Source: Clostridiales bacterium GWD2_32_19 (GTDB taxonomy: Bacteria; Bacillota; Clostridia; Lachnospirales; UBA12420). Taken from it: 64,000 nt of DNA. Position 1 is the first letter of the stretch. Every line of letters starts with the position of its first letter. Shown here one piece after another: positions 40,357 to 53,296 of this stretch. A model generated the notes under the pieces. That model saw only the letters and a list, made by a program, of their open reading frames with translations. It was not told the origin of the DNA and did no database searches. The position numbers and the translations under genes were made by a program. The stretch is from NCBI GenBank assembly GCA_001795385.1, contig MGOU01000020.1, positions 27,539-91,538 on the forward strand, written 5' to 3'.

Positions 40357-40947
40357 CTACTCATCCTTTAATTGCCTTTTTATATACTCTTTTAAATGCA
40401 TCGTATCAAGAACCGACTTTCTCATAATTTCTAGATACCCTTCCTTATTTATCATATCAAACCTCAAATTATATCCTGCCGACTCAGCTAAAAGTTCTAT
40501 GAATTTTCTTATCGTACGACCGTTACCCTCACGAAACGGATGAATGATATTAAACTCTGCTTTATAATATGCAAGTCTTTCTGATAATATATCTTTATCC
40601 ATATCTTTTAAGTAATTATCATCCTTTAGCTCTCCAAATACCCTTTTAAGTTCGCTTTTTATATTCTCGGGGTAAGCAAAAGTTGTGTTGTCTTTGTGTA
40701 TTCTCACTTTTCTATATTCCCCTGCCCAATCAAGTATTTCTTCAAACAAAAACTTATGGATGGCTATAAAATACTTTTCATCTAAAACCTTACCCAGCTT
40801 TTTCCCTTCCATCTCGATAAGTTTAAGCCCAGTCAAATCACGCTCAAGGCATATTAGTTTTTCTTTATCCCTTATATTAAACTTATTTTTCAAGACACCT
40901 GTATTATTATAACAATAAATATCATCTTGTATATCGTAATCCATCAT
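40357..40947 (-). CDS. fic: Fic-domain protein (class I toxin, AMP-transferase family)
   Basis: Canonical Fic motif HPFREGNGRTIRKF. 196 aa. Confidence 0.9.
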   Translation of the reverse strand: MMDYDIQDDIYCYNNTGVLKNKFNIRDKEKLICLERDLTGLKLIEMEGKKLGKVLDEKYFIAIHKFLFEEILDWAGEYRKVRIHKDNTTFAYPENIKSELKRVFGELKDDNYLKDMDKDILSERLAYYKAEFNIIHPFREGNGRTIRKFIELLAESAGYNLRFDMINKEGYLEIMRKSVLDTMHLKEYIKRQLKDE

Positions 40948-44833: not shown

Positions 44834-45580
44834 TCACATCAAAAGTGAGGTTTTCGTTTCTTTAATTGAATTTGTTATGTTTAATATATTCGCATCTATT
44901 TTCTTCTTAGTTTCTATAAAATCACCCATAAACTTGACGATTATATTATCACTTGTATCTTCTATAAATTCATTAGGTGAAAACTCCATATTGCTTAGAA
45001 CAACTGGTAATAAATCATCCTTTTTATATGGCAATTTACCATTGATAACAGTTTCCAATATATTTATCGATTCTGCAAGTTTGCTATACTTATCTTCCGA
45101 CTGCACTTTTTCTAAATCTGAATCGATTGAAGCTGCAATAAATAATATTTTTTTAGCAACCTTTGTTTTTTCTTTAAGTAGTTCATGGGTTGTTTCACAC
45201 ATTTTATTTACATTACTTGAAAAACTTTTTTTATGTTCACCAGATTTTGAAAAATCAGAATTATTACTTCTCAACATAGAAACATATTTGTAAACAATAT
45301 TTTGCATGTGATTTGAATATGCAAAAAGTTCTTCTTTCCTATACACAAACGAATCAAGTGTTTTTCTCATATGAAGCTTATTTACTTCGGATTTATTAAC
45401 CTTTTCATGCGAGGTATTATAAAATTCTTCTATTTTACTATCATAATTTAACTCGATTAGTCTTCTTTCTTCACTTAACATTTCATACAATGTCATCCAA
45501 TCCACATTCTCAGTTCTATTATATGAATACCATAAATCAATTTTTTCCAAATAATTATTTATAGTTACATTATCCGTCAT
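44834..45580 (-). CDS. Hypothetical protein (248 aa), no recognised domain
   Basis: Long ORF directly downstream of DegV on the same strand. Confidence 0.55.
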   Translation of the reverse strand: MTDNVTINNYLEKIDLWYSYNRTENVDWMTLYEMLSEERRLIELNYDSKIEEFYNTSHEKVNKSEVNKLHMRKTLDSFVYRKEELFAYSNHMQNIVYKYVSMLRSNNSDFSKSGEHKKSFSSNVNKMCETTHELLKEKTKVAKKILFIAASIDSDLEKVQSEDKYSKLAESINILETVINGKLPYKKDDLLPVVLSNMEFSPNEFIEDTSDNIIVKFMGDFIETKKKIDANILNITNSIKETKTSLLM

Positions 45581-45607
45581 ATTCCTTCGCCTCTGTATTA
45601 GATTTTA

Positions 45608-46450
45608 CTAAACATCTAAGTTCAGTATTGCTATTCCTACTGCTCCTGGTCCTAGATGTACGCCTATAGTAGGCCCCATGTCGCATTTGTGTACATTTTT
45701 AGCGCCGTATTCTGTCTTTAATTTTTCTATCATTTTTTCAGCTGCCTCATCACTCGCAGCATTTAAAACAAATATGTCCGAGTCTTCCTTTATATAATCT
45801 TTTACATACTCTAACATATATGTTATACCTTTCCCATTTCCACGAACTTTATCAAGGGTATCTATAAGTCCATCTTTTAGTACTAATATTGGTTTTAAAT
45901 TAAGAATTGTACCTATCATAGCTTTTGCAGGTGATAATCTGCCACCTTTTTTTAAATACTCCAGTGTATCTGCCATAACAACAAGTTTAGAATTATTTTT
46001 AATCCGCTCTATCTCTTTAATTATTTCATCTATTGTTCTTCCTTTTTCTATTAGTTTGGCTGCATATAATATTATCGATCCCAAACCTACTGTAACATTT
46101 CTCGAATCAATTAAATGAATTTTATCGTTTACTATTAACTCTTTTGCAATTTTAGCTGAATTGAAAGTACCACTCAGGTCACTAGATATAAATATACCTA
46201 ATACCTCGTCTTTTGCTTTTAAAATATTTTCAAAGATATCTTCAAACTCTGCTGGATTTACTTGAGATGTTTTTGGAAGTTCGTTACAATCCTTCAACTT
46301 TTCATAGAACATCTTTGCTGAAATTTCTACCGTATCTTTGTAGGCTCTATCTTTAAAATGTACAGTAAGTGGTGCTATTTCAATATTATATTTTCCTATT
46401 AGCTCTTCATTTAAATCTGATGTACTATCTGTAACTATCCTTATCCCCAT
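45608..46450 (-). CDS. DegV-family fatty-acid-binding protein
   Basis: IRIVTDSTSDL...typical DegV layout, 280 aa. Confidence 0.9.
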   Translation of the reverse strand: MGIRIVTDSTSDLNEELIGKYNIEIAPLTVHFKDRAYKDTVEISAKMFYEKLKDCNELPKTSQVNPAEFEDIFENILKAKDEVLGIFISSDLSGTFNSAKIAKELIVNDKIHLIDSRNVTVGLGSIILYAAKLIEKGRTIDEIIKEIERIKNNSKLVVMADTLEYLKKGGRLSPAKAMIGTILNLKPILVLKDGLIDTLDKVRGNGKGITYMLEYVKDYIKEDSDIFVLNAASDEAAEKMIEKLKTEYGAKNVHKCDMGPTIGVHLGPGAVGIAILNLDV

Positions 46451-46627
46451 GTCCTCAGCTCCTATAGATATTATCTCTTTCTAAACTGATTTTACCTTTT
46501 TTTTACCTATATGTCAAGGGAATTTTGATCCTATTGTTATTTTTCATCCTGAATACTTCTACCAATACTGATACACATCACTAACTATTTCCTACTAAAT
46601 TTCAGAAAATTGCAAGCGTTTTAAACT

Positions 46628-47045: not shown

Positions 47046-47741
47046 CTATTTCTCTACTATGTATTTTTCTATTTTTGCTGGAAGCGTTCCAATAAACTCT
47101 AGTCTATCCTTCTCTATATATAATTGTTCAATAGAAAGTCCATTATACTTTGAGATTATAAAGGTGATAAAAGGTGACAAAGATGCTTGAACTTTGTCTA
47201 CTACATCAGATCCCAAGTGAATATTTCCTAAATATATTTTTTCTACGGATGCATCTATATTATATTTACCATATGAATTAATCTTCCCTTTAATATATAT
47301 AGGAGTGTCCTCCATCATATCTAACAAAAATACATACTTACCCACATTAGGATCTGTCTTAGCTGTTTCCTTTAGAAAATCAACCGTTGCCTTCTCTAAA
47401 GTAAAGTTCGCCTCTACTTCATTATTATCCAAAAGGTTTATCTTTATATTACTTATAGGTCCCAATTCATTATTAGCTGTAGATAACATTGCGCTCATTT
47501 CTTTACTTGAAAAAACAGTTTGCACTTGATTTCCCCCATAACATATAAGTTTATCATTTAATACATCTGTTAAATTTAAATCATTGATATTTTCAACATC
47601 CAATTTTGTCTTTTTTATTCCGTTTTCATAATCAGCTGTGGTCCACTCTACATCAACAGTTTTTGTCATTCTCAAAAAAAATGTAAAGCCAATGGCAAAA
47701 ACTATTAAATCAAAAATTATAAACCTTATGAATTTCATCAT
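47046..47741 (-). CDS. Membrane-anchored hypothetical protein
   Basis: N-terminal TM helix. 231 aa. Lies 35 nt upstream of the PilZ gene on the same strand. Confidence 0.6.
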   Translation of the reverse strand: MMKFIRFIIFDLIVFAIGFTFFLRMTKTVDVEWTTADYENGIKKTKLDVENINDLNLTDVLNDKLICYGGNQVQTVFSSKEMSAMLSTANNELGPISNIKINLLDNNEVEANFTLEKATVDFLKETAKTDPNVGKYVFLLDMMEDTPIYIKGKINSYGKYNIDASVEKIYLGNIHLGSDVVDKVQASLSPFITFIISKYNGLSIEQLYIEKDRLEFIGTLPAKIEKYIVEK

Positions 47742-47828
47742 GTTAATACCCTCCGCTTATCAATTCATATTAAAATATTAGCAATACAAATTTATATTAA
47801 TCTATCTCACTATTTTATACATTTCTAC

Positions 47829-47864
47829 AAAAAAAGTCAAGCATTTTTTAACTTGACTTTTTTC
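47829..47864 (-). terminator. Hairpin terminator following the displaced PFOR 3' end copy
   Basis: aaaagtcaag-cattttttaa-cttgactttt. Confidence 0.6.
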
Positions 47865-47913
47865 TACATTTTCACTCATAAACCCTTCTAAACCTTTTAC
47901 ATTAATATCCCTT

Positions 47914-48018
47914 TTTAGTATTCCATCTTACTCATTCTTACATATCCTTCATATCTATCTTTTGCTTGTTTCTCTGCTTCTACAAATAACTTATCTGCCA
48001 TTTCTGGGAATTGTTTTT
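47914..48018. repeat. Direct repeat A: displaced duplicate of the PFOR 3' end
   Basis: 105 bp aligning to 49762-49866 with 3-4 mismatches. On the minus strand it encodes [33 protein letters not shown]. Confidence 0.9.
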
Positions 48019-48025
48019 AATAGTT

Positions 48026-48724
48026 TTAAGATTCTATCAGAATCTCTAGTTCTACTTCTATACTTTCCCTGATATCATCATAATAAACCTTACTTACCTT
48101 ACAATCTATCTTGTAATTATTATCAATAGCAATTGAAATTGCTTTACTAAAATACTTTGGTATATAGCCTAATTTAGCATTTTCTTTACTAAAAACCTCT
48201 ATTGCACATTCATCAAATTCATTGCAAGGCTCCTTTTTTAAAATCAATCTTTCATACTCAGTTAATCCCATTTTTTTTAATTTTTCTATATCTTCTATAT
48301 AATATCTAATACCTGCTAAATAAAAATCCCTTTTAAAGTTTTTCTCATTATTCTCAAAGTTTATCGGTTCCACAAATTCTAGCATGTCAGTCGGTAACTT
48401 ACCACCATTCTTTTTCAAAAACTCAAATTCATTATATTCTTCTAATTCGTATTTTTCTAGAATCTCTTTTATATTTTTCCTTCTTTTATCTGGTAGTCTA
48501 GTAGTAAACGCCGGAAACATTCTTTGATTTTCATAAACCTTGTCTATATCGGAAAAAGCTGGAAGTAACTCAAATTTCGCTTTTTTTGCTTCTTTTACAC
48601 CATCTTTATCATATTTAAATTCAAATCCATAACTTGTTTTTGCTAACTCTGCAATTTTATACCTATTACGTTTTTCAGGATCTTGCCAAATTAACCATAA
48701 AACATTTTTTTCCATATTAATCAA
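48026..48724 (-). CDS. HipA-N-terminal-like domain fused to a HIRAN domain
   Basis: N-terminal half (LLPAFSD...FPAFTTRLPDKRRKNIKEIL...FLKKNGGKLPTDMLEFVEP) resembles the HipA N-terminal (HipS-like) domain. C-terminal half (FYLAGIRYY...LILKKEPCNEFDECAIEVF...KLGYIPK) fits HIRAN. It overlaps the kinase gene by 8 nt. Confidence 0.65.
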   Translation of the reverse strand: MINMEKNVLWLIWQDPEKRNRYKIAELAKTSYGFEFKYDKDGVKEAKKAKFELLPAFSDIDKVYENQRMFPAFTTRLPDKRRKNIKEILEKYELEEYNEFEFLKKNGGKLPTDMLEFVEPINFENNEKNFKRDFYLAGIRYYIEDIEKLKKMGLTEYERLILKKEPCNEFDECAIEVFSKENAKLGYIPKYFSKAISIAIDNNYKIDCKVSKVYYDDIRESIEVELEILIES

Positions 48725-49603
48725 ACTCCTTTCCTATTATTTTTTCCCTTCTATCTACTAAAAATTTTATTAAAAGTTTTTTCCTTTTAGAACTAATAGT
48801 ATCCTCATCAAATTCATATACTAGTTCCTTTATTACTTCTTCATTCAAATTTTCTTTTATTCTCGAAATTATTCCCTTCACTTCATGACAATATTCCAAA
48901 TTCAACATTATAAGCAATTCAAAGTGTTGCATTTTTCGTTTATTTTTCCATCCTACTAAAGCTTTTGATTTTGTAGTTAACATTGCCTGATATCTGCACT
49001 TGTCTCTTAATATATCTTCAATATCTTCTTCATTATTATAGCAACATAATGAAGAACTATTATCGTATACTGGTGCTATTTTAATAGTCCTCTCTATTTC
49101 ATTGAAAACGACTCCCCAATTACTATGGTGCCTATCAGAATTACCTATTAGTATATCAAAAATTATAATTTCTAATATCTCTGTACTAAGTCCAACTACA
49201 TTTATGGCTTCTACTATCATTTGTATATCATAATGTCTATCTAAAACCGTATCATAGAATTTGTTTTCATCATAATCAATAAATATTTTTGTTATAAAAT
49301 TTATACCTTCTACTAGTGTCTCCGAATTTTCTAAAAAATAATAGTTCATAGAACCTATCCTGCCTTTATATTTTCCTATTTCCACACTTTGGCAAGGTAG
49401 GTTTATTCTATCAGCTAACATACTTGCTAACTTTTCTGCCCAATATTCTCCTGTGATAACTCCTTTGCTATCCTTCTTCGGAAATTTAAAAAGACCTATC
49501 TTTTTTCTTTTATATTTACTAACCAAAGCTTTTCACTTGCTCCAGACCCCTCTGGAGAATTTTTTATTTCTTCCCAATTATCAAAGTTCTTTAGTTCAAC
49601 CAT
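48717..49603 (-). pseudogene. HipA-like Ser/Thr kinase core, frameshifted at an A6 tract
   Basis: Catalytic block FDILIGNSDRHHSNWGV. The ATG at 49603 (GGAG RBS) encodes MVELKNFDNWEEIKNSPEGSGASEKLWLVNIKEKR*. One extra A in the run 49501-49506 would fuse it to ...KKIGLFKFPKKDSKGVITGEYWAEKLA. Confidence 0.75.
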
Positions 49604-49714
49604 TTTCCAAATCTCCTAACCTACTACTTATTATCCAAATTTATACTATCATATTTATGTTTAAATTTCAATCTTTTTAATAAAACTTTAATATAATGTT
49701 AATATACAAGTTCA

Positions 49715-49759
49715 AATATAAACAAGGGAGCCGTCTTCCTCGGCTCCCTTGTTTATATT
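49715..49759 (-). terminator. Strong terminator immediately after the functional PFOR stop codon
   Basis: 19-bp stem aatataaacaagggagccg/cggctcccttgtttatatt. Confidence 0.7.
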
Positions 49760-49761
49760 GA

Positions 49762-53296
<3,535 letters not shown>

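What the first reader, a model, noticed from the sequence alone, without database searches (positions are those of the whole stretch)
48026..49603. Two-gene split-HipA module: kinase core followed by a HipA-N-like/HIRAN fusion protein
What the sequence shows:
- The upstream gene has the HipA catalytic block (FDILIGNSDRHHSNWG) but only about 295 codons. It therefore lacks the HipA N-terminal subdomain.
- The gene that overlaps it by 8 nt encodes a protein whose first ~120 aa look like that missing HipA N-terminal (HipS-like) subdomain.
- The last ~100 aa of that second protein fit a HIRAN domain. HIRAN is a 3'-DNA-end-binding fold known from HLTF/Rad5.

How it differs from known systems:
- No HTH HipB-type gene is present.
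- The gene order (kinase first, partner second) is the reverse of hipB-hipS-hipT.

To my knowledge, HIRAN-bearing partners of short HipA-like kinases have only been noted in comparative surveys and have not been characterised. I cannot verify family membership here.

A DNA-end sensor coupled to a toxin kinase would suit either a toxin-antitoxin or an anti-phage role.
Basis: partly seen in the sequence, partly recalled or inferred. Interest (0 to 1): 0.8.

Follow-up and report, generated by a model that had tools for sequence, protein, structure and literature searches.

The report
Decayed hipIN kinase toxin-antitoxin cassette
This is a copy of the already named but never tested hipIN module: a short HipA-type toxin kinase followed by a partner protein that joins a HipS-like kinase-blocking domain to a DNA-end-binding HIRAN domain. 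In this copy the kinase gene is broken by a one-base deletion, and the whole 1.85-kb cassette is a recent insertion behind a housekeeping gene.

Summary
On the minus strand, 48026-48715 encodes a 229-aa protein. Its N-terminal half is a HipS/HipA-N-subdomain-1 fold and its C-terminal half is a HIRAN fold (Pfam above threshold, AlphaFold2 pLDDT 91, Foldseek best matches HipS 7ab3_B and HLTF HIRAN). The gene directly upstream is a short HipA-superfamily kinase.

The architecture is not new. It is the hipIN organisation named by Gerdes et al. (mBio 2021) and is candidate defence system PDC-M03 in PADLOC (E 1e-97 and 3e-75). I found no experimental work on it.

- Synteny: in 66 of 77 testable loci an intact kinase lies immediately upstream of hipN. 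There is no conserved third gene and no conserved HTH gene.
- Broken kinase: in this window an A6 run (49501-49506) splits the kinase into a 35-codon piece carrying the ATP-binding Gly-rich loop and a 269-codon piece carrying the catalytic loop. Adding one A restores 295 codons. Four other assemblies carry the same break. Eleven other loci have independently lost the kinase while keeping hipN.
- Insertion: the cassette is a 1,848-bp insertion flanked by a 105-nt duplication of the PFOR gene's 3' end. A relative with ~85% nucleotide identity has the empty site.

Verdict: a new, decayed member of a known, uncharacterised family.

The parts
48019..49761 (-). Unique part of the inserted cassette: terminator hairpin, promoter-like site, hipI, hipN. 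GC is 27.8% against 32.6% for the whole window.
   Evidence: It is absent from the related contig L088, where the PFOR stop is followed directly by the homologue of the 231-aa gene.
49762..49866 (-). Direct repeat copy 1: the real last 104 nt of the PFOR gene plus 1 nt.
   Evidence: the repeat finder family D1: 105 nt, 97% identity, spacing 1848. Three-way alignment with L088.
47914..48018 (-). Direct repeat copy 2: a duplicated PFOR 3' end that starts 7 nt after the hipN stop. The ancestral downstream sequence follows it.
49715..49759 (.). Hairpin with a 19-bp stem at the PFOR-proximal edge of the insert. It now serves as the PFOR terminator and insulates the cassette.
   Evidence: Terminator scan: 2 found against 0.2 expected.
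49643..49671 (-). Promoter-like site (TTGAAA, 17 nt, TG-TAGTAT) upstream of hipI. The Shine-Dalgarno sequence AGGAG lies about 9 nt before the ATG at 49603.
   Evidence: consensus match only, not above shuffle expectation. Sequence.
49496..49603 (-). hipI 5' fragment: 35 codons plus a TAG stop. It encodes the conserved Gly-rich ATP-binding loop SPEGSGASEKLWL.
   Evidence: Translation. The residues are invariant in the alignment with intact homologues.
49501..49506 (-). A6 run where the reading frame breaks. Inserting one A (A7) restores a 295-codon ORF.
   Evidence: The sequence is identical in L001-L004.
48717..49526 (-). hipI 3' fragment: the 269-codon ORF in the -1 frame. It carries the catalytic loop GNSDRHHSNW and the YDNSSS Mg-binding motif.
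48026..48715 (-). hipN: 229 aa from the ATG, intact. The Shine-Dalgarno sequence AAGGAG at 48726-48731 lies inside the hipI 3' end.
   Evidence: 100% identical to database protein P0001 (229 aa). PADLOC PDC-M03B, E 3e-75.
48356..48715 (-). HipS-like domain (HipA N-subdomain-1) of HipN, residues 1 to about 120.
   Evidence: Pfam Couple_hipA. Foldseek best match HipS 7ab3_B.
48038..48337 (-). HIRAN domain of HipN, residues about 127-226. The R137-Y138, N165, F167, D168 and G183-Y184 motif positions are kept.
   Evidence: Pfam HIRAN. Foldseek HLTF HIRAN. Profile alignment to HLTF and lp_0118. Family-invariant columns.

Best explanation
The locus is a hipIN cassette, also catalogued as PADLOC PDC-M03. 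It is a bicistronic toxin-antitoxin-like module.

How an intact module is expected to work:
- HipI is a short HipA-superfamily Ser/Thr kinase that lacks N-subdomain-1.
- By analogy with HipA (which targets GltX) and HipT (which targets TrpS), HipI would arrest growth by phosphorylating an essential translation factor.
[quoted passage not shown] - The HIRAN domain, whose 3'-end-binding pocket residues are conserved, ties this inhibition to free DNA 3' ends. Either it acts as a trigger, with phage or replication-intermediate ends releasing the kinase and causing abortive infection, or it is the DNA-binding moiety that replaces HipB.

What this copy is:
- The toxin has been inactivated by loss of one A from an A7 run. 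That separates the Gly-rich loop from the catalytic core.
- hipN remains intact, so what is left is an orphan antitoxin-like gene.
- The cassette arrived as a self-contained 1.74-kb unit with its own terminator and promoter. It inserted at the 3' end of the pyruvate:ferredoxin oxidoreductase gene with a 105-nt target duplication.

Shown here: domain identities and folds, conserved synteny, the frame break and its reproducibility, and the insertion with its empty site.
Inferred: toxicity, neutralisation by HipN, the kinase target, and the role of HIRAN.
For: Identity:
- Pfam HipA_C, Couple_hipA and HIRAN all score above their gathering thresholds.
- PADLOC PDC-M03A E 1.7e-97 and PDC-M03B E 3e-75, both full length.
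- Fold matches to HipS/HipA-N and to HLTF HIRAN.
- The closest solved kinase by sequence is H. pylori CtkA (E 1.6e-10), followed by HipT.

Coupling of the two genes:
- 253 species genomes encode a HipN relative.
- In 66 of 77 testable loci an intact kinase with both a Gly-rich loop and a catalytic motif lies immediately upstream on the same strand.
- The same holds in 11 of 12 viral contigs with a full-length hipN.
- Natural fusions of kinase + HipS-like + HIRAN (HipL type) exist: P0130 and P0154 match all three Pfam families, P0186 and P0192 match HipA_C and HIRAN.
- Flanking genes vary and there is no conserved third gene.

Toxin-like behaviour:
- The kinase is absent (5 loci), truncated (3), frameshifted (2) or carries a nonsense codon (1) in 11 loci. 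In every one hipN is an intact ORF.
- The breaks lie at different positions, which argues for independent decay.

Frame break in this window:
-.
- The sequence is identical in four assemblies from NCBI, JGI, ENA and Logan.
- Adding one A restores 295 codons that are collinear with intact homologues.

Insertion.

Mechanistic precedent: HipS Trp65 wedges under the HipT Gly-rich loop (PMC10627512). The hipIN hypothesis itself is in PMC8262856.
Against: - No member of the hipIN family has been tested. Toxicity, neutralisation and DNA-end sensing are all inferences.
- The 269-codon part of hipI is still free of stops, so the break is either recent or tolerated. Low-level frameshifting or reversion at the A run cannot be excluded.
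- The survey was anchored on HipN. Loss of hipN with retention of hipI would be under-sampled, so the asymmetry of decay is not a fair two-sided test.
- This HipN lacks the cysteines (alignment column 155, C215, C218) that are nearly invariant in the family, and its partner is dead. Its own activity is therefore uncertain.
- The immediate neighbourhood is housekeeping (PFOR, PilZ, DegV), not a defence island.
Confidence: 0.75

Rival explanations
1. The module is functional. The A-run is a recoding or phase-variation site: -1 ribosomal slippage, transcriptional slippage, or reversible A6/A7 slipped-strand mutation. It would keep toxin output very low or switchable.
For: - A -1 shift at GAA-AAA-AGA yields exactly the homologue-length protein.
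- The downstream 269 codons remain open.
- The break sits in a homopolymer, which is the classic substrate for slippage.
Against: - The zero-frame codons are AAA-AGA, so the A AAA AAG heptamer is in the wrong phase for tandem slippage.
- There is no upstream SD-like or obvious downstream stimulator. The only hairpin lies 5' of the site.
- 66 homologues have uninterrupted kinases. The other broken copies break elsewhere (L026 about codon 106, L051 about 131-139, L038 nonsense).
- Six A's are short for efficient transcriptional slippage (general knowledge).
- All five sequences show A6 with no heterogeneity.
Confidence: 0.12
2. The frameshift is a sequencing or assembly artefact and the kinase is intact in the organism.
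For: Homopolymer runs are error-prone on some sequencing platforms.
Against: - The same A6 appears in the window and in four separately produced assemblies from different archives and runs: GCA_003518385.1, JGI 3300001041, ENA ERZ936476/SRR944699 and Logan SRR6487784.
- Gene callers in all four split the gene into 35 + 269 aa.
Confidence: 0.05
3. HipN is retained because it has a role of its own, independent of the adjacent kinase. One option is anti-addiction immunity against HipI kinases brought in by phages or other elements. Another is a role as a DNA-end-binding protein. The locus would then be an orphan-antitoxin locus under selection rather than a decaying remnant.
For: - hipN is intact in all 11 loci that lost the kinase, and in this window.
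- Five loci have hipN with no trace of a kinase. One example is L005, where hipN lies between a type I R-M system and a large helicase.
- hipIN pairs are carried by temperate phages next to their integrases, so incoming HipI is plausible.
Against: - There is no direct evidence of selection on orphan hipN.
- The survey was ascertained on HipN, so intact hipN is expected.
- Cross-neutralisation between HipN and HipI proteins with 40-50% identity is untested.
- This HipN has lost the family's conserved cysteines.
Confidence: 0.3

Closest known systems
hipIN modules (HipI kinase + HipN), Gerdes, Baerentsen and Brodersen, mBio 2021 (PMC8262856); the same pair as PADLOC candidate system PDC-M03
   Same: - A short core kinase without N-subdomain-1.
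- A downstream gene encoding a HipS-like domain plus a HIRAN domain.
- Kinase-first bicistron with no HTH partner.
- Firmicutes are among the described host phyla.
- Both PADLOC profiles match over their full length.
   Different: - This copy has a frameshifted kinase.
- Its HipN lacks the cysteines found in most family members.
- I did not place the kinase in the published clade XI tree.
HipBST (E. coli O127:H6, Legionella, Haemophilus)
   Same: - A split HipA: HipS corresponds to N-subdomain-1 and HipT to the kinase core.
- HipS is the antitoxin and blocks the Gly-rich loop.
- The HipN N-domain has HipS as its best structural match.
   Different: - HipBST is tricistronic, with a HipB HTH protein and the order B-S-T.
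- HipS is a single domain with no HIRAN.
- Here the order is reversed and there is no HipB.
HipL kinases (single-chain kinase + HipS-like + HIRAN)
   Same: The same three domains in the same N-to-C order. Relatives were found in the same search (P0130, P0154, P0186, P0192).
   Different: HipL is one polypeptide. Here the domains are split into two genes at the boundary between the kinase and the HipS-like domain.
HipBA (E. coli K-12)
   Same: Kinase superfamily, Gly-rich loop and catalytic motifs. The N-subdomain-1 sequence motif (F..F...LPD...) is recognisable in HipN.
   Different: HipA is a single protein of about 440 aa. It is neutralised and regulated by the HTH protein HipB. There is no HIRAN domain.
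HLTF/Rad5 HIRAN domain; bacterial lp_0118 (PDB 3k2y)
   Same: The fold, and the conserved R-Y, N-x-[YF]-D and G-[HY] motifs that form the 3'-end pocket in HLTF.
   Different: In eukaryotes HIRAN is fused to SNF2/RING fork-remodelling enzymes. Here it is fused to a kinase-inhibitory domain. DNA binding is untested.

Membership tests
hipIN (Gerdes et al. 2021) | A HipA-homologous kinase of about 290-300 aa that lacks N-subdomain-1 but keeps the core kinase motifs (Gly-rich loop, catalytic loop, Mg-binding Asp). | tested here: met
   - HipA_C matches residues 20-211.
- GSGASEK, GNSDRHHSNW and YDN are aligned and invariant with intact homologues.
- All motifs are present only when the two ORF fragments are joined.
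hipIN (Gerdes et al. 2021) | [quoted passage not shown] | tested here: met
   Pfam. AlphaFold2 plus Foldseek for both domains.
hipIN (Gerdes et al. 2021) | Bicistronic, kinase first, with conserved adjacency and no HipB/HTH gene. | tested here: met
   - Window ORF map.
- 66 of 77 loci have an intact kinase immediately upstream.
- An HTH neighbour occurs in only 2-4 of about 74 loci.
hipIN (Gerdes et al. 2021) | The kinase falls in a HipI subclade of main clade XI of the Hip tree. | not tested
There is only indirect support, from the PADLOC PDC-M03A profile match.
PADLOC PDC-M03 candidate defence system | Adjacent genes match the PDC-M03A and PDC-M03B profiles. | tested here: met
   E 1.7e-97 (residues 4-290 of 296) and E 3e-75 (residues 3-228 of 232).
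Type II toxin-antitoxin system (functional sense) | The toxin arrests growth, and the cognate antitoxin binds and neutralises it. | not testable with these tools
   Only indirect evidence is available: recurrent loss of the kinase with retention of hipN, and the HipS precedent.
Type II toxin-antitoxin system (functional sense) | An intact toxin gene in this locus. | tested here: not met
   The frame breaks after codon 35, and the Gly-rich loop is separated from the catalytic core.
HipBST | A tricistronic operon with a HipB HTH protein and a stand-alone single-domain HipS upstream of the kinase. | tested here: not met
   There is no HTH ORF in the insert. The order is kinase then partner, and the partner carries an extra HIRAN domain.
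HIRAN domain | The HIRAN beta-barrel fold with conserved residues of the 3'-end-binding pocket. | tested here: met
   - Foldseek against HLTF HIRAN: E 2.7e-6, TM (target) 0.64-0.78.
- The profile aligns HipN ...EPCNEFDECAIEV...LGY to HLTF ...DPNNPYDKNAIKV...VGH.
- G135, N165, D168, A171 and G183 are invariant and R137 and Y184 nearly so in 58 homologues.
- The HLTF residue roles are from my recollection of the HLTF structure papers.
HIRAN domain | Binding of free DNA 3' ends. | not testable with these tools
   This needs EMSA or fluorescence anisotropy with 3'-OH against 3'-blocked oligonucleotides.

The most novel reading that the evidence does not exclude
hipIN pairs are compact mobile cassettes that insert into unrelated chromosomal sites with a variable-length duplication of the target (18-292 nt). 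The downstream boundary falls 0-9 nt after the hipN stop codon. The 3'-end-binding HipN protein, or a templated-insertion or Campbell-type process acting on a circular cassette, takes part in this mobility. After insertion the kinase is often lost, and hipN persists as immunity against incoming HipI.
Probability: 0.1. Interest if true: 0.7.

Novelty: new member of a known kind. Interest (0 to 1): 0.3.

Why it matters
hipIN/PDC-M03 is a widespread kinase module: at least 253 species genomes, and 1,117 clusters at 50% identity for HipN-like proteins. It has never been tested. The published hypothesis is that a DNA-end reader gates a translation-poisoning kinase.

This locus does not change that picture, but it adds three usable facts.
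1. It offers a natural experiment in toxin decay. The kinase is lost repeatedly while hipN survives, which is the behaviour expected if HipI is toxic and HipN is protective.
2. It gives a clean occupied-site/empty-site pair showing that the two genes move as one self-contained 1.7-kb unit.
3. It gives a one-base repair (A6 to A7) that would yield a matched toxin/partner pair for testing.

As it stands, this copy is most likely non-functional as a toxin or defence system.

Tried and rejected
- Exact-identity look-up of the 232-aa TTG-start product found nothing. The recorded product starts at the ATG and has 229 aa.
- NCBIfam has no model for HipN and gives only a sub-threshold YjjJ hit for the kinase.
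- Sequence-only profile searches of the PDB barely see HipS (E about 0.7-0.9). The HipS relationship rests on Pfam and on the fold match.
- An exact-pattern scan of metagenomes for an empty site found nothing. A protein-anchored scan with the downstream 231-aa gene then found L088.
- Canonical -1 programmed frameshifting was considered and judged unlikely: wrong heptamer phase, not conserved.
- A prophage or ICE remnant as the source of the direct repeats was considered. The insert holds no integrase or transposase fragment, and hipN ends 7 nt from the repeat, so simple internal deletion of a larger element is not parsimonious. It is not excluded.
- Rfam found nothing meaningful in 47600-50000. 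The only hit was a sub-threshold miRNA-hairpin match on the terminator.
- Literature searches for HipN/HipI, PDC-M03 and HIRAN + anti-phage + kinase returned no experimental study.
Full report
**What is at the coordinates**

Both genes are on the minus strand. The downstream ORF runs 48724/48715 to 48026. The upstream kinase ORF is listed as 49526 to 48717, 269 codons from a TTG. Translating upstream of that TTG in the three frames shows an ATG at 49603. It opens a 35-codon ORF, MVELKNFDNWEEIKNSPEGSGASEKLWLVNIKEKR*, which ends at a TAG at 49498-49496. The kinase continues in the -1 frame. The region lies between a 1,177-aa pyruvate:ferredoxin oxidoreductase gene (PFOR, 53296-49763) and a 231-aa gene (47741-47046).

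**Domain identities**

- Pfam places HipA_C on the frame-joined kinase (E 6.7e-10, 39.4 bits against a cut-off of 30.5).
- Pfam places both Couple_hipA (residues 22-110, 26.1 against 22.5 bits) and HIRAN (133-216, 34.9 against 24.7 bits) on the partner protein.
- PADLOC-DB matches the pair over full length to candidate system PDC-M03: M03A E 1.7e-97 and M03B E 3e-75.
- An AlphaFold2 model of the partner, built on 58 homologues, is confident (pLDDT 90.8, pTM 0.82).
- Foldseek against the PDB returns the HLTF HIRAN domain (4s0n_B, E 2.7e-6) and the bacterial HIRAN protein lp_0118 (3k2y) for the C-terminal half.
- A separate model of residues 1-122 (pLDDT 89.5) has HipS of E. coli HipBST as its best PDB match (7ab3_B, E 9.8e-4, TM 0.64/0.76). 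The next matches are a HipA N-terminal domain (7czo) and the N-terminal parts of full HipA structures (4pu3_A, 3dnt_B, 4yg7_K).
- The profile alignment to HLTF pairs HipN ...EPCNEFDECAIEV...LGY with HLTF ...DPNNPYDKNAIKV...VGH. G135, N165, D168, A171 and G183 are invariant and R137 and Y184 nearly invariant across 58 homologues. From my recollection of the HLTF structures, these correspond to the R71/Y72, N91, D94 and H110 pocket that reads a free 3' end.
- By sequence, the kinase's closest solved relative is H. pylori CtkA (E 1.6e-10), followed by HipT proteins.

**Two corrections to the observation**

1. The start of the partner gene is almost certainly the ATG at 48715. The identical database protein has 229 aa. 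All public gene calls use that start. AAGGAG sits 10 nt upstream, inside the end of hipI. The junction is therefore TAA-T-ATG rather than an 8-nt overlap.
2. The kinase is not intact. The break lies at an A6 run (49501-49506). Adding one A gives a single 295-codon ORF, whereas removing one A does not. The restored protein is collinear with intact homologues from L006 and L007. The residues P17, G19-S20-G21, S23-E24-K25, W27 and L28 are all encoded before the break and are invariant. This segment is the Gly-rich ATP-binding loop of HipA-type kinases. Its role is described in PMC10627512.

The same A6 sequence is found in four separately produced assemblies: NCBI GCA_003518385.1, JGI 3300001041, ENA ERZ936476 and Logan SRR6487784. 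In all four, gene callers split the gene into 35 + 269 aa. An artefact is therefore unlikely.

**Family and synteny**

- A profile search found 432 HipN-like proteins at 90% clustering, almost all about 230 aa.
- An exhaustive search of 50%-identity representatives found 1,117 hits at E <= 1e-3. These include single-chain kinase + HipS-like + HIRAN proteins of about 500-530 aa and HipS-only proteins of about 116-130 aa.
- In one-genome-per-species contigs, 253 stretches encode a relative. Of the 80 loci retrieved plus three from contig look-ups, 77 could be tested for an upstream kinase.
- 66 of the 77 have an intact kinase, with Gly-rich loop and catalytic motif, immediately upstream on the same strand. 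In 5 the kinase is absent, in 3 truncated, in 2 frameshifted, and 1 has a nonsense codon.
- In all 11 exceptions hipN is an uninterrupted ORF with its motifs. The breaks are at different places. This argues for independent decay rather than a conserved recoding signal.
- The nearest flanking genes are highly variable, with 117 and 124 Pfam families among 74 and 73 neighbours. No third gene recurs, and an HTH neighbour occurs in only 2-4 loci. Some loci sit beside R-M, Cas9, Cas3, TOTE, recombinase or terminase genes.

**Presence on mobile elements**

- hipN relatives occur in 5 of 50,697 phage records and 3 of 72,556 plasmids.
- In C. difficile phage phiCDKH02 and in Vibrio Vinavirales elements, the hipI-hipN pair lies next to the integrase at the genome end.
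- In IMG/VR, 17 contigs carry a relative. Of the 12 full-length hipN, 11 have hipI directly upstream.

**The cassette is an insertion**

- A 105-nt direct repeat (97% identity) brackets the pair: 49762-49866 and 47914-48018, spacing 1,848 nt. The first copy is the true 3' end of PFOR.
- A related metagenomic contig (L088) has a 231-aa-gene homologue with 79% amino-acid identity and about 85% nucleotide identity over PFOR. There the PFOR stop is followed directly by that downstream gene. Both window repeat copies align to the same single stretch of L088.
- The window therefore carries 1,743 unique bases plus one extra copy of the PFOR end.
- In order, the insert contains a 19-bp-stem hairpin (49715-49759), a promoter-like site, hipI and hipN. 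It stops 7 nt after the hipN stop codon. It contains no recombinase.
- Its GC content is 27.8%, against 31-34% in the flanks.
- Other hipIN loci also have flanking direct repeats. Their sequences are unrelated and their lengths are 18-292 nt. In L016, L047 and L050 the downstream copy starts 0-9 nt after the hipN stop.
- Such repeats are about seven-fold more frequent than around shifted control positions: 6/63 against 5/344, Fisher p = 0.003.
- I cannot say what mechanism produces them.

**Literature**

Gerdes, Baerentsen and Brodersen (mBio 2021, PMC8262856) define hipIN as a HipI kinase with a downstream HipN made of a HipS-like domain plus a HIRAN domain. They note the related HipL fusions and hipJS modules. 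They propose that HIRAN recognises phage DNA ends and thereby activates the kinase for abortive infection.

A 2025 NAR paper notes HipA + HIRAN pairs next to diDNase genes in Actinobacteria and calls the link uninvestigated. PDC-M03 appears once in the library, as a genome-annotation remark. Searches for experimental work on HipI/HipN or on HIRAN-kinase defence systems found none.

**How it most likely works**

The HipBST structures show that HipS occupies the position of HipA N-subdomain-1 and wedges Trp65 under the HipT Gly-rich loop. This locks the loop outward so that ATP cannot bind.

By homology of both partners, I infer that the HipN N-domain neutralises HipI in the same way. I also infer that HipI, when free, phosphorylates an essential translation component. 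HIRAN adds DNA 3'-end recognition. It could act as a trigger that releases the kinase, which is the published hypothesis. It could instead be a substitute for the missing HipB DNA-binding function.

None of this has been tested. The repeated loss of the kinase with retention of hipN fits a toxin/protector relationship, but the survey was ascertained on HipN.

In this window the toxin is disabled: its ATP-binding loop and catalytic core are in different frames. The 269-codon remainder is still open, so the deletion is probably recent. Low-level slippage or reversion at the A run is the main alternative (about 12%). The zero-frame codons (AAA-AGA) put the A AAA AAG motif in the wrong phase for canonical tandem slippage. 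No homologue shares the feature.

**Verdict**

The system is a member of a named, catalogued but experimentally untouched family, and this copy is a decayed one. The cassette-like insertion with a long target duplication, and the hint that other hipIN loci share this, is the only element I could not find described. It is recorded as unexplained.

Noticed in passing
window 47914-48018 and 49762-49866; L016 5031-5052/6679-6700; L047 5009-5026/6674-6691; L050 4817-4864/6675-6722; L019 580-664/2474-2558; L080 2905-2996/5005-5096; L056 4399-4685/6890-7181; L078 4914-4934/6714-6734: hipIN cassettes in unrelated genomes are bracketed by direct repeats of unrelated sequence and variable length (18-292 nt). 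In four cases the downstream copy begins 0-9 nt after the hipN stop, and in L047 the stop codon straddles the junction. The repeats are enriched over shifted-window controls (6/63 against 5/344, p = 0.003). The insertion mechanism is unknown.
   Followed up: partly
window 40357-40947 (-): A 196-aa Fic-domain protein matches PADLOC candidate defence family PDC-S04 (E 9.6e-65) and, weakly, SoFic. It lies about 7 kb from hipIN. The other nine neighbours tested gave no defence-family match.
   Followed up: partly
HipN residues about 140-150 and 213-218 (window 48062-48295); alignments A3/A4: Most HipN homologues carry nearly invariant cysteines (C.G..C ... C.EC) in the HIRAN half, which suggests a metal site. 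The window protein and its closest relative P0002 have lost them.
   Followed up: no
proteins P0227, P0172, P0226, P0211: HipN-like (HipS-like + HIRAN) modules occur fused to other domains: an N-terminal MqsA-antitoxin/HTH domain, a C-terminal HD domain, a nucleotidyltransferase domain, and DUF4062. This suggests the HipS-HIRAN unit is reused with other partners.
   Followed up: no
L024 5782-6675: In one Lachnospiraceae MAG, a deletion has fused the first ~62 codons of the kinase (including the Gly-rich loop) in frame to hipN. The result is a 297-aa chimera with no catalytic loop.
   Followed up: no
L005 3664-15287 (Inediibacterium massiliense): The closest named homologue of this HipN (53% identity) has no adjacent kinase. 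It sits between a complete type I R-M system (HsdR/M/S) and a 1,236-aa AAA_11/AAA_12 helicase, which is a defence-island-like setting.
   Followed up: partly
L089 (phage phiCDKH02 2135-1415) and L090 (Vibrio Vinavirales element): Intact hipI-hipN pairs are carried by temperate phages directly beside the integrase. In phiCDKH02 they lie between the integrase and the ImmA/XRE lysogeny module, which is the usual position of prophage accessory or defence genes.
   Followed up: partly
window 45603-46593 against L088 7150-10401: The relative L088 has about 3.2 kb (three ORFs of 380, 258 and 382 aa) between the PilZ and DegV genes that the window lacks. The window's 248-aa ORF (44834-45580) has no aligned counterpart in L088. 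This stretch downstream of PFOR is a variable region in both genomes.
   Followed up: no
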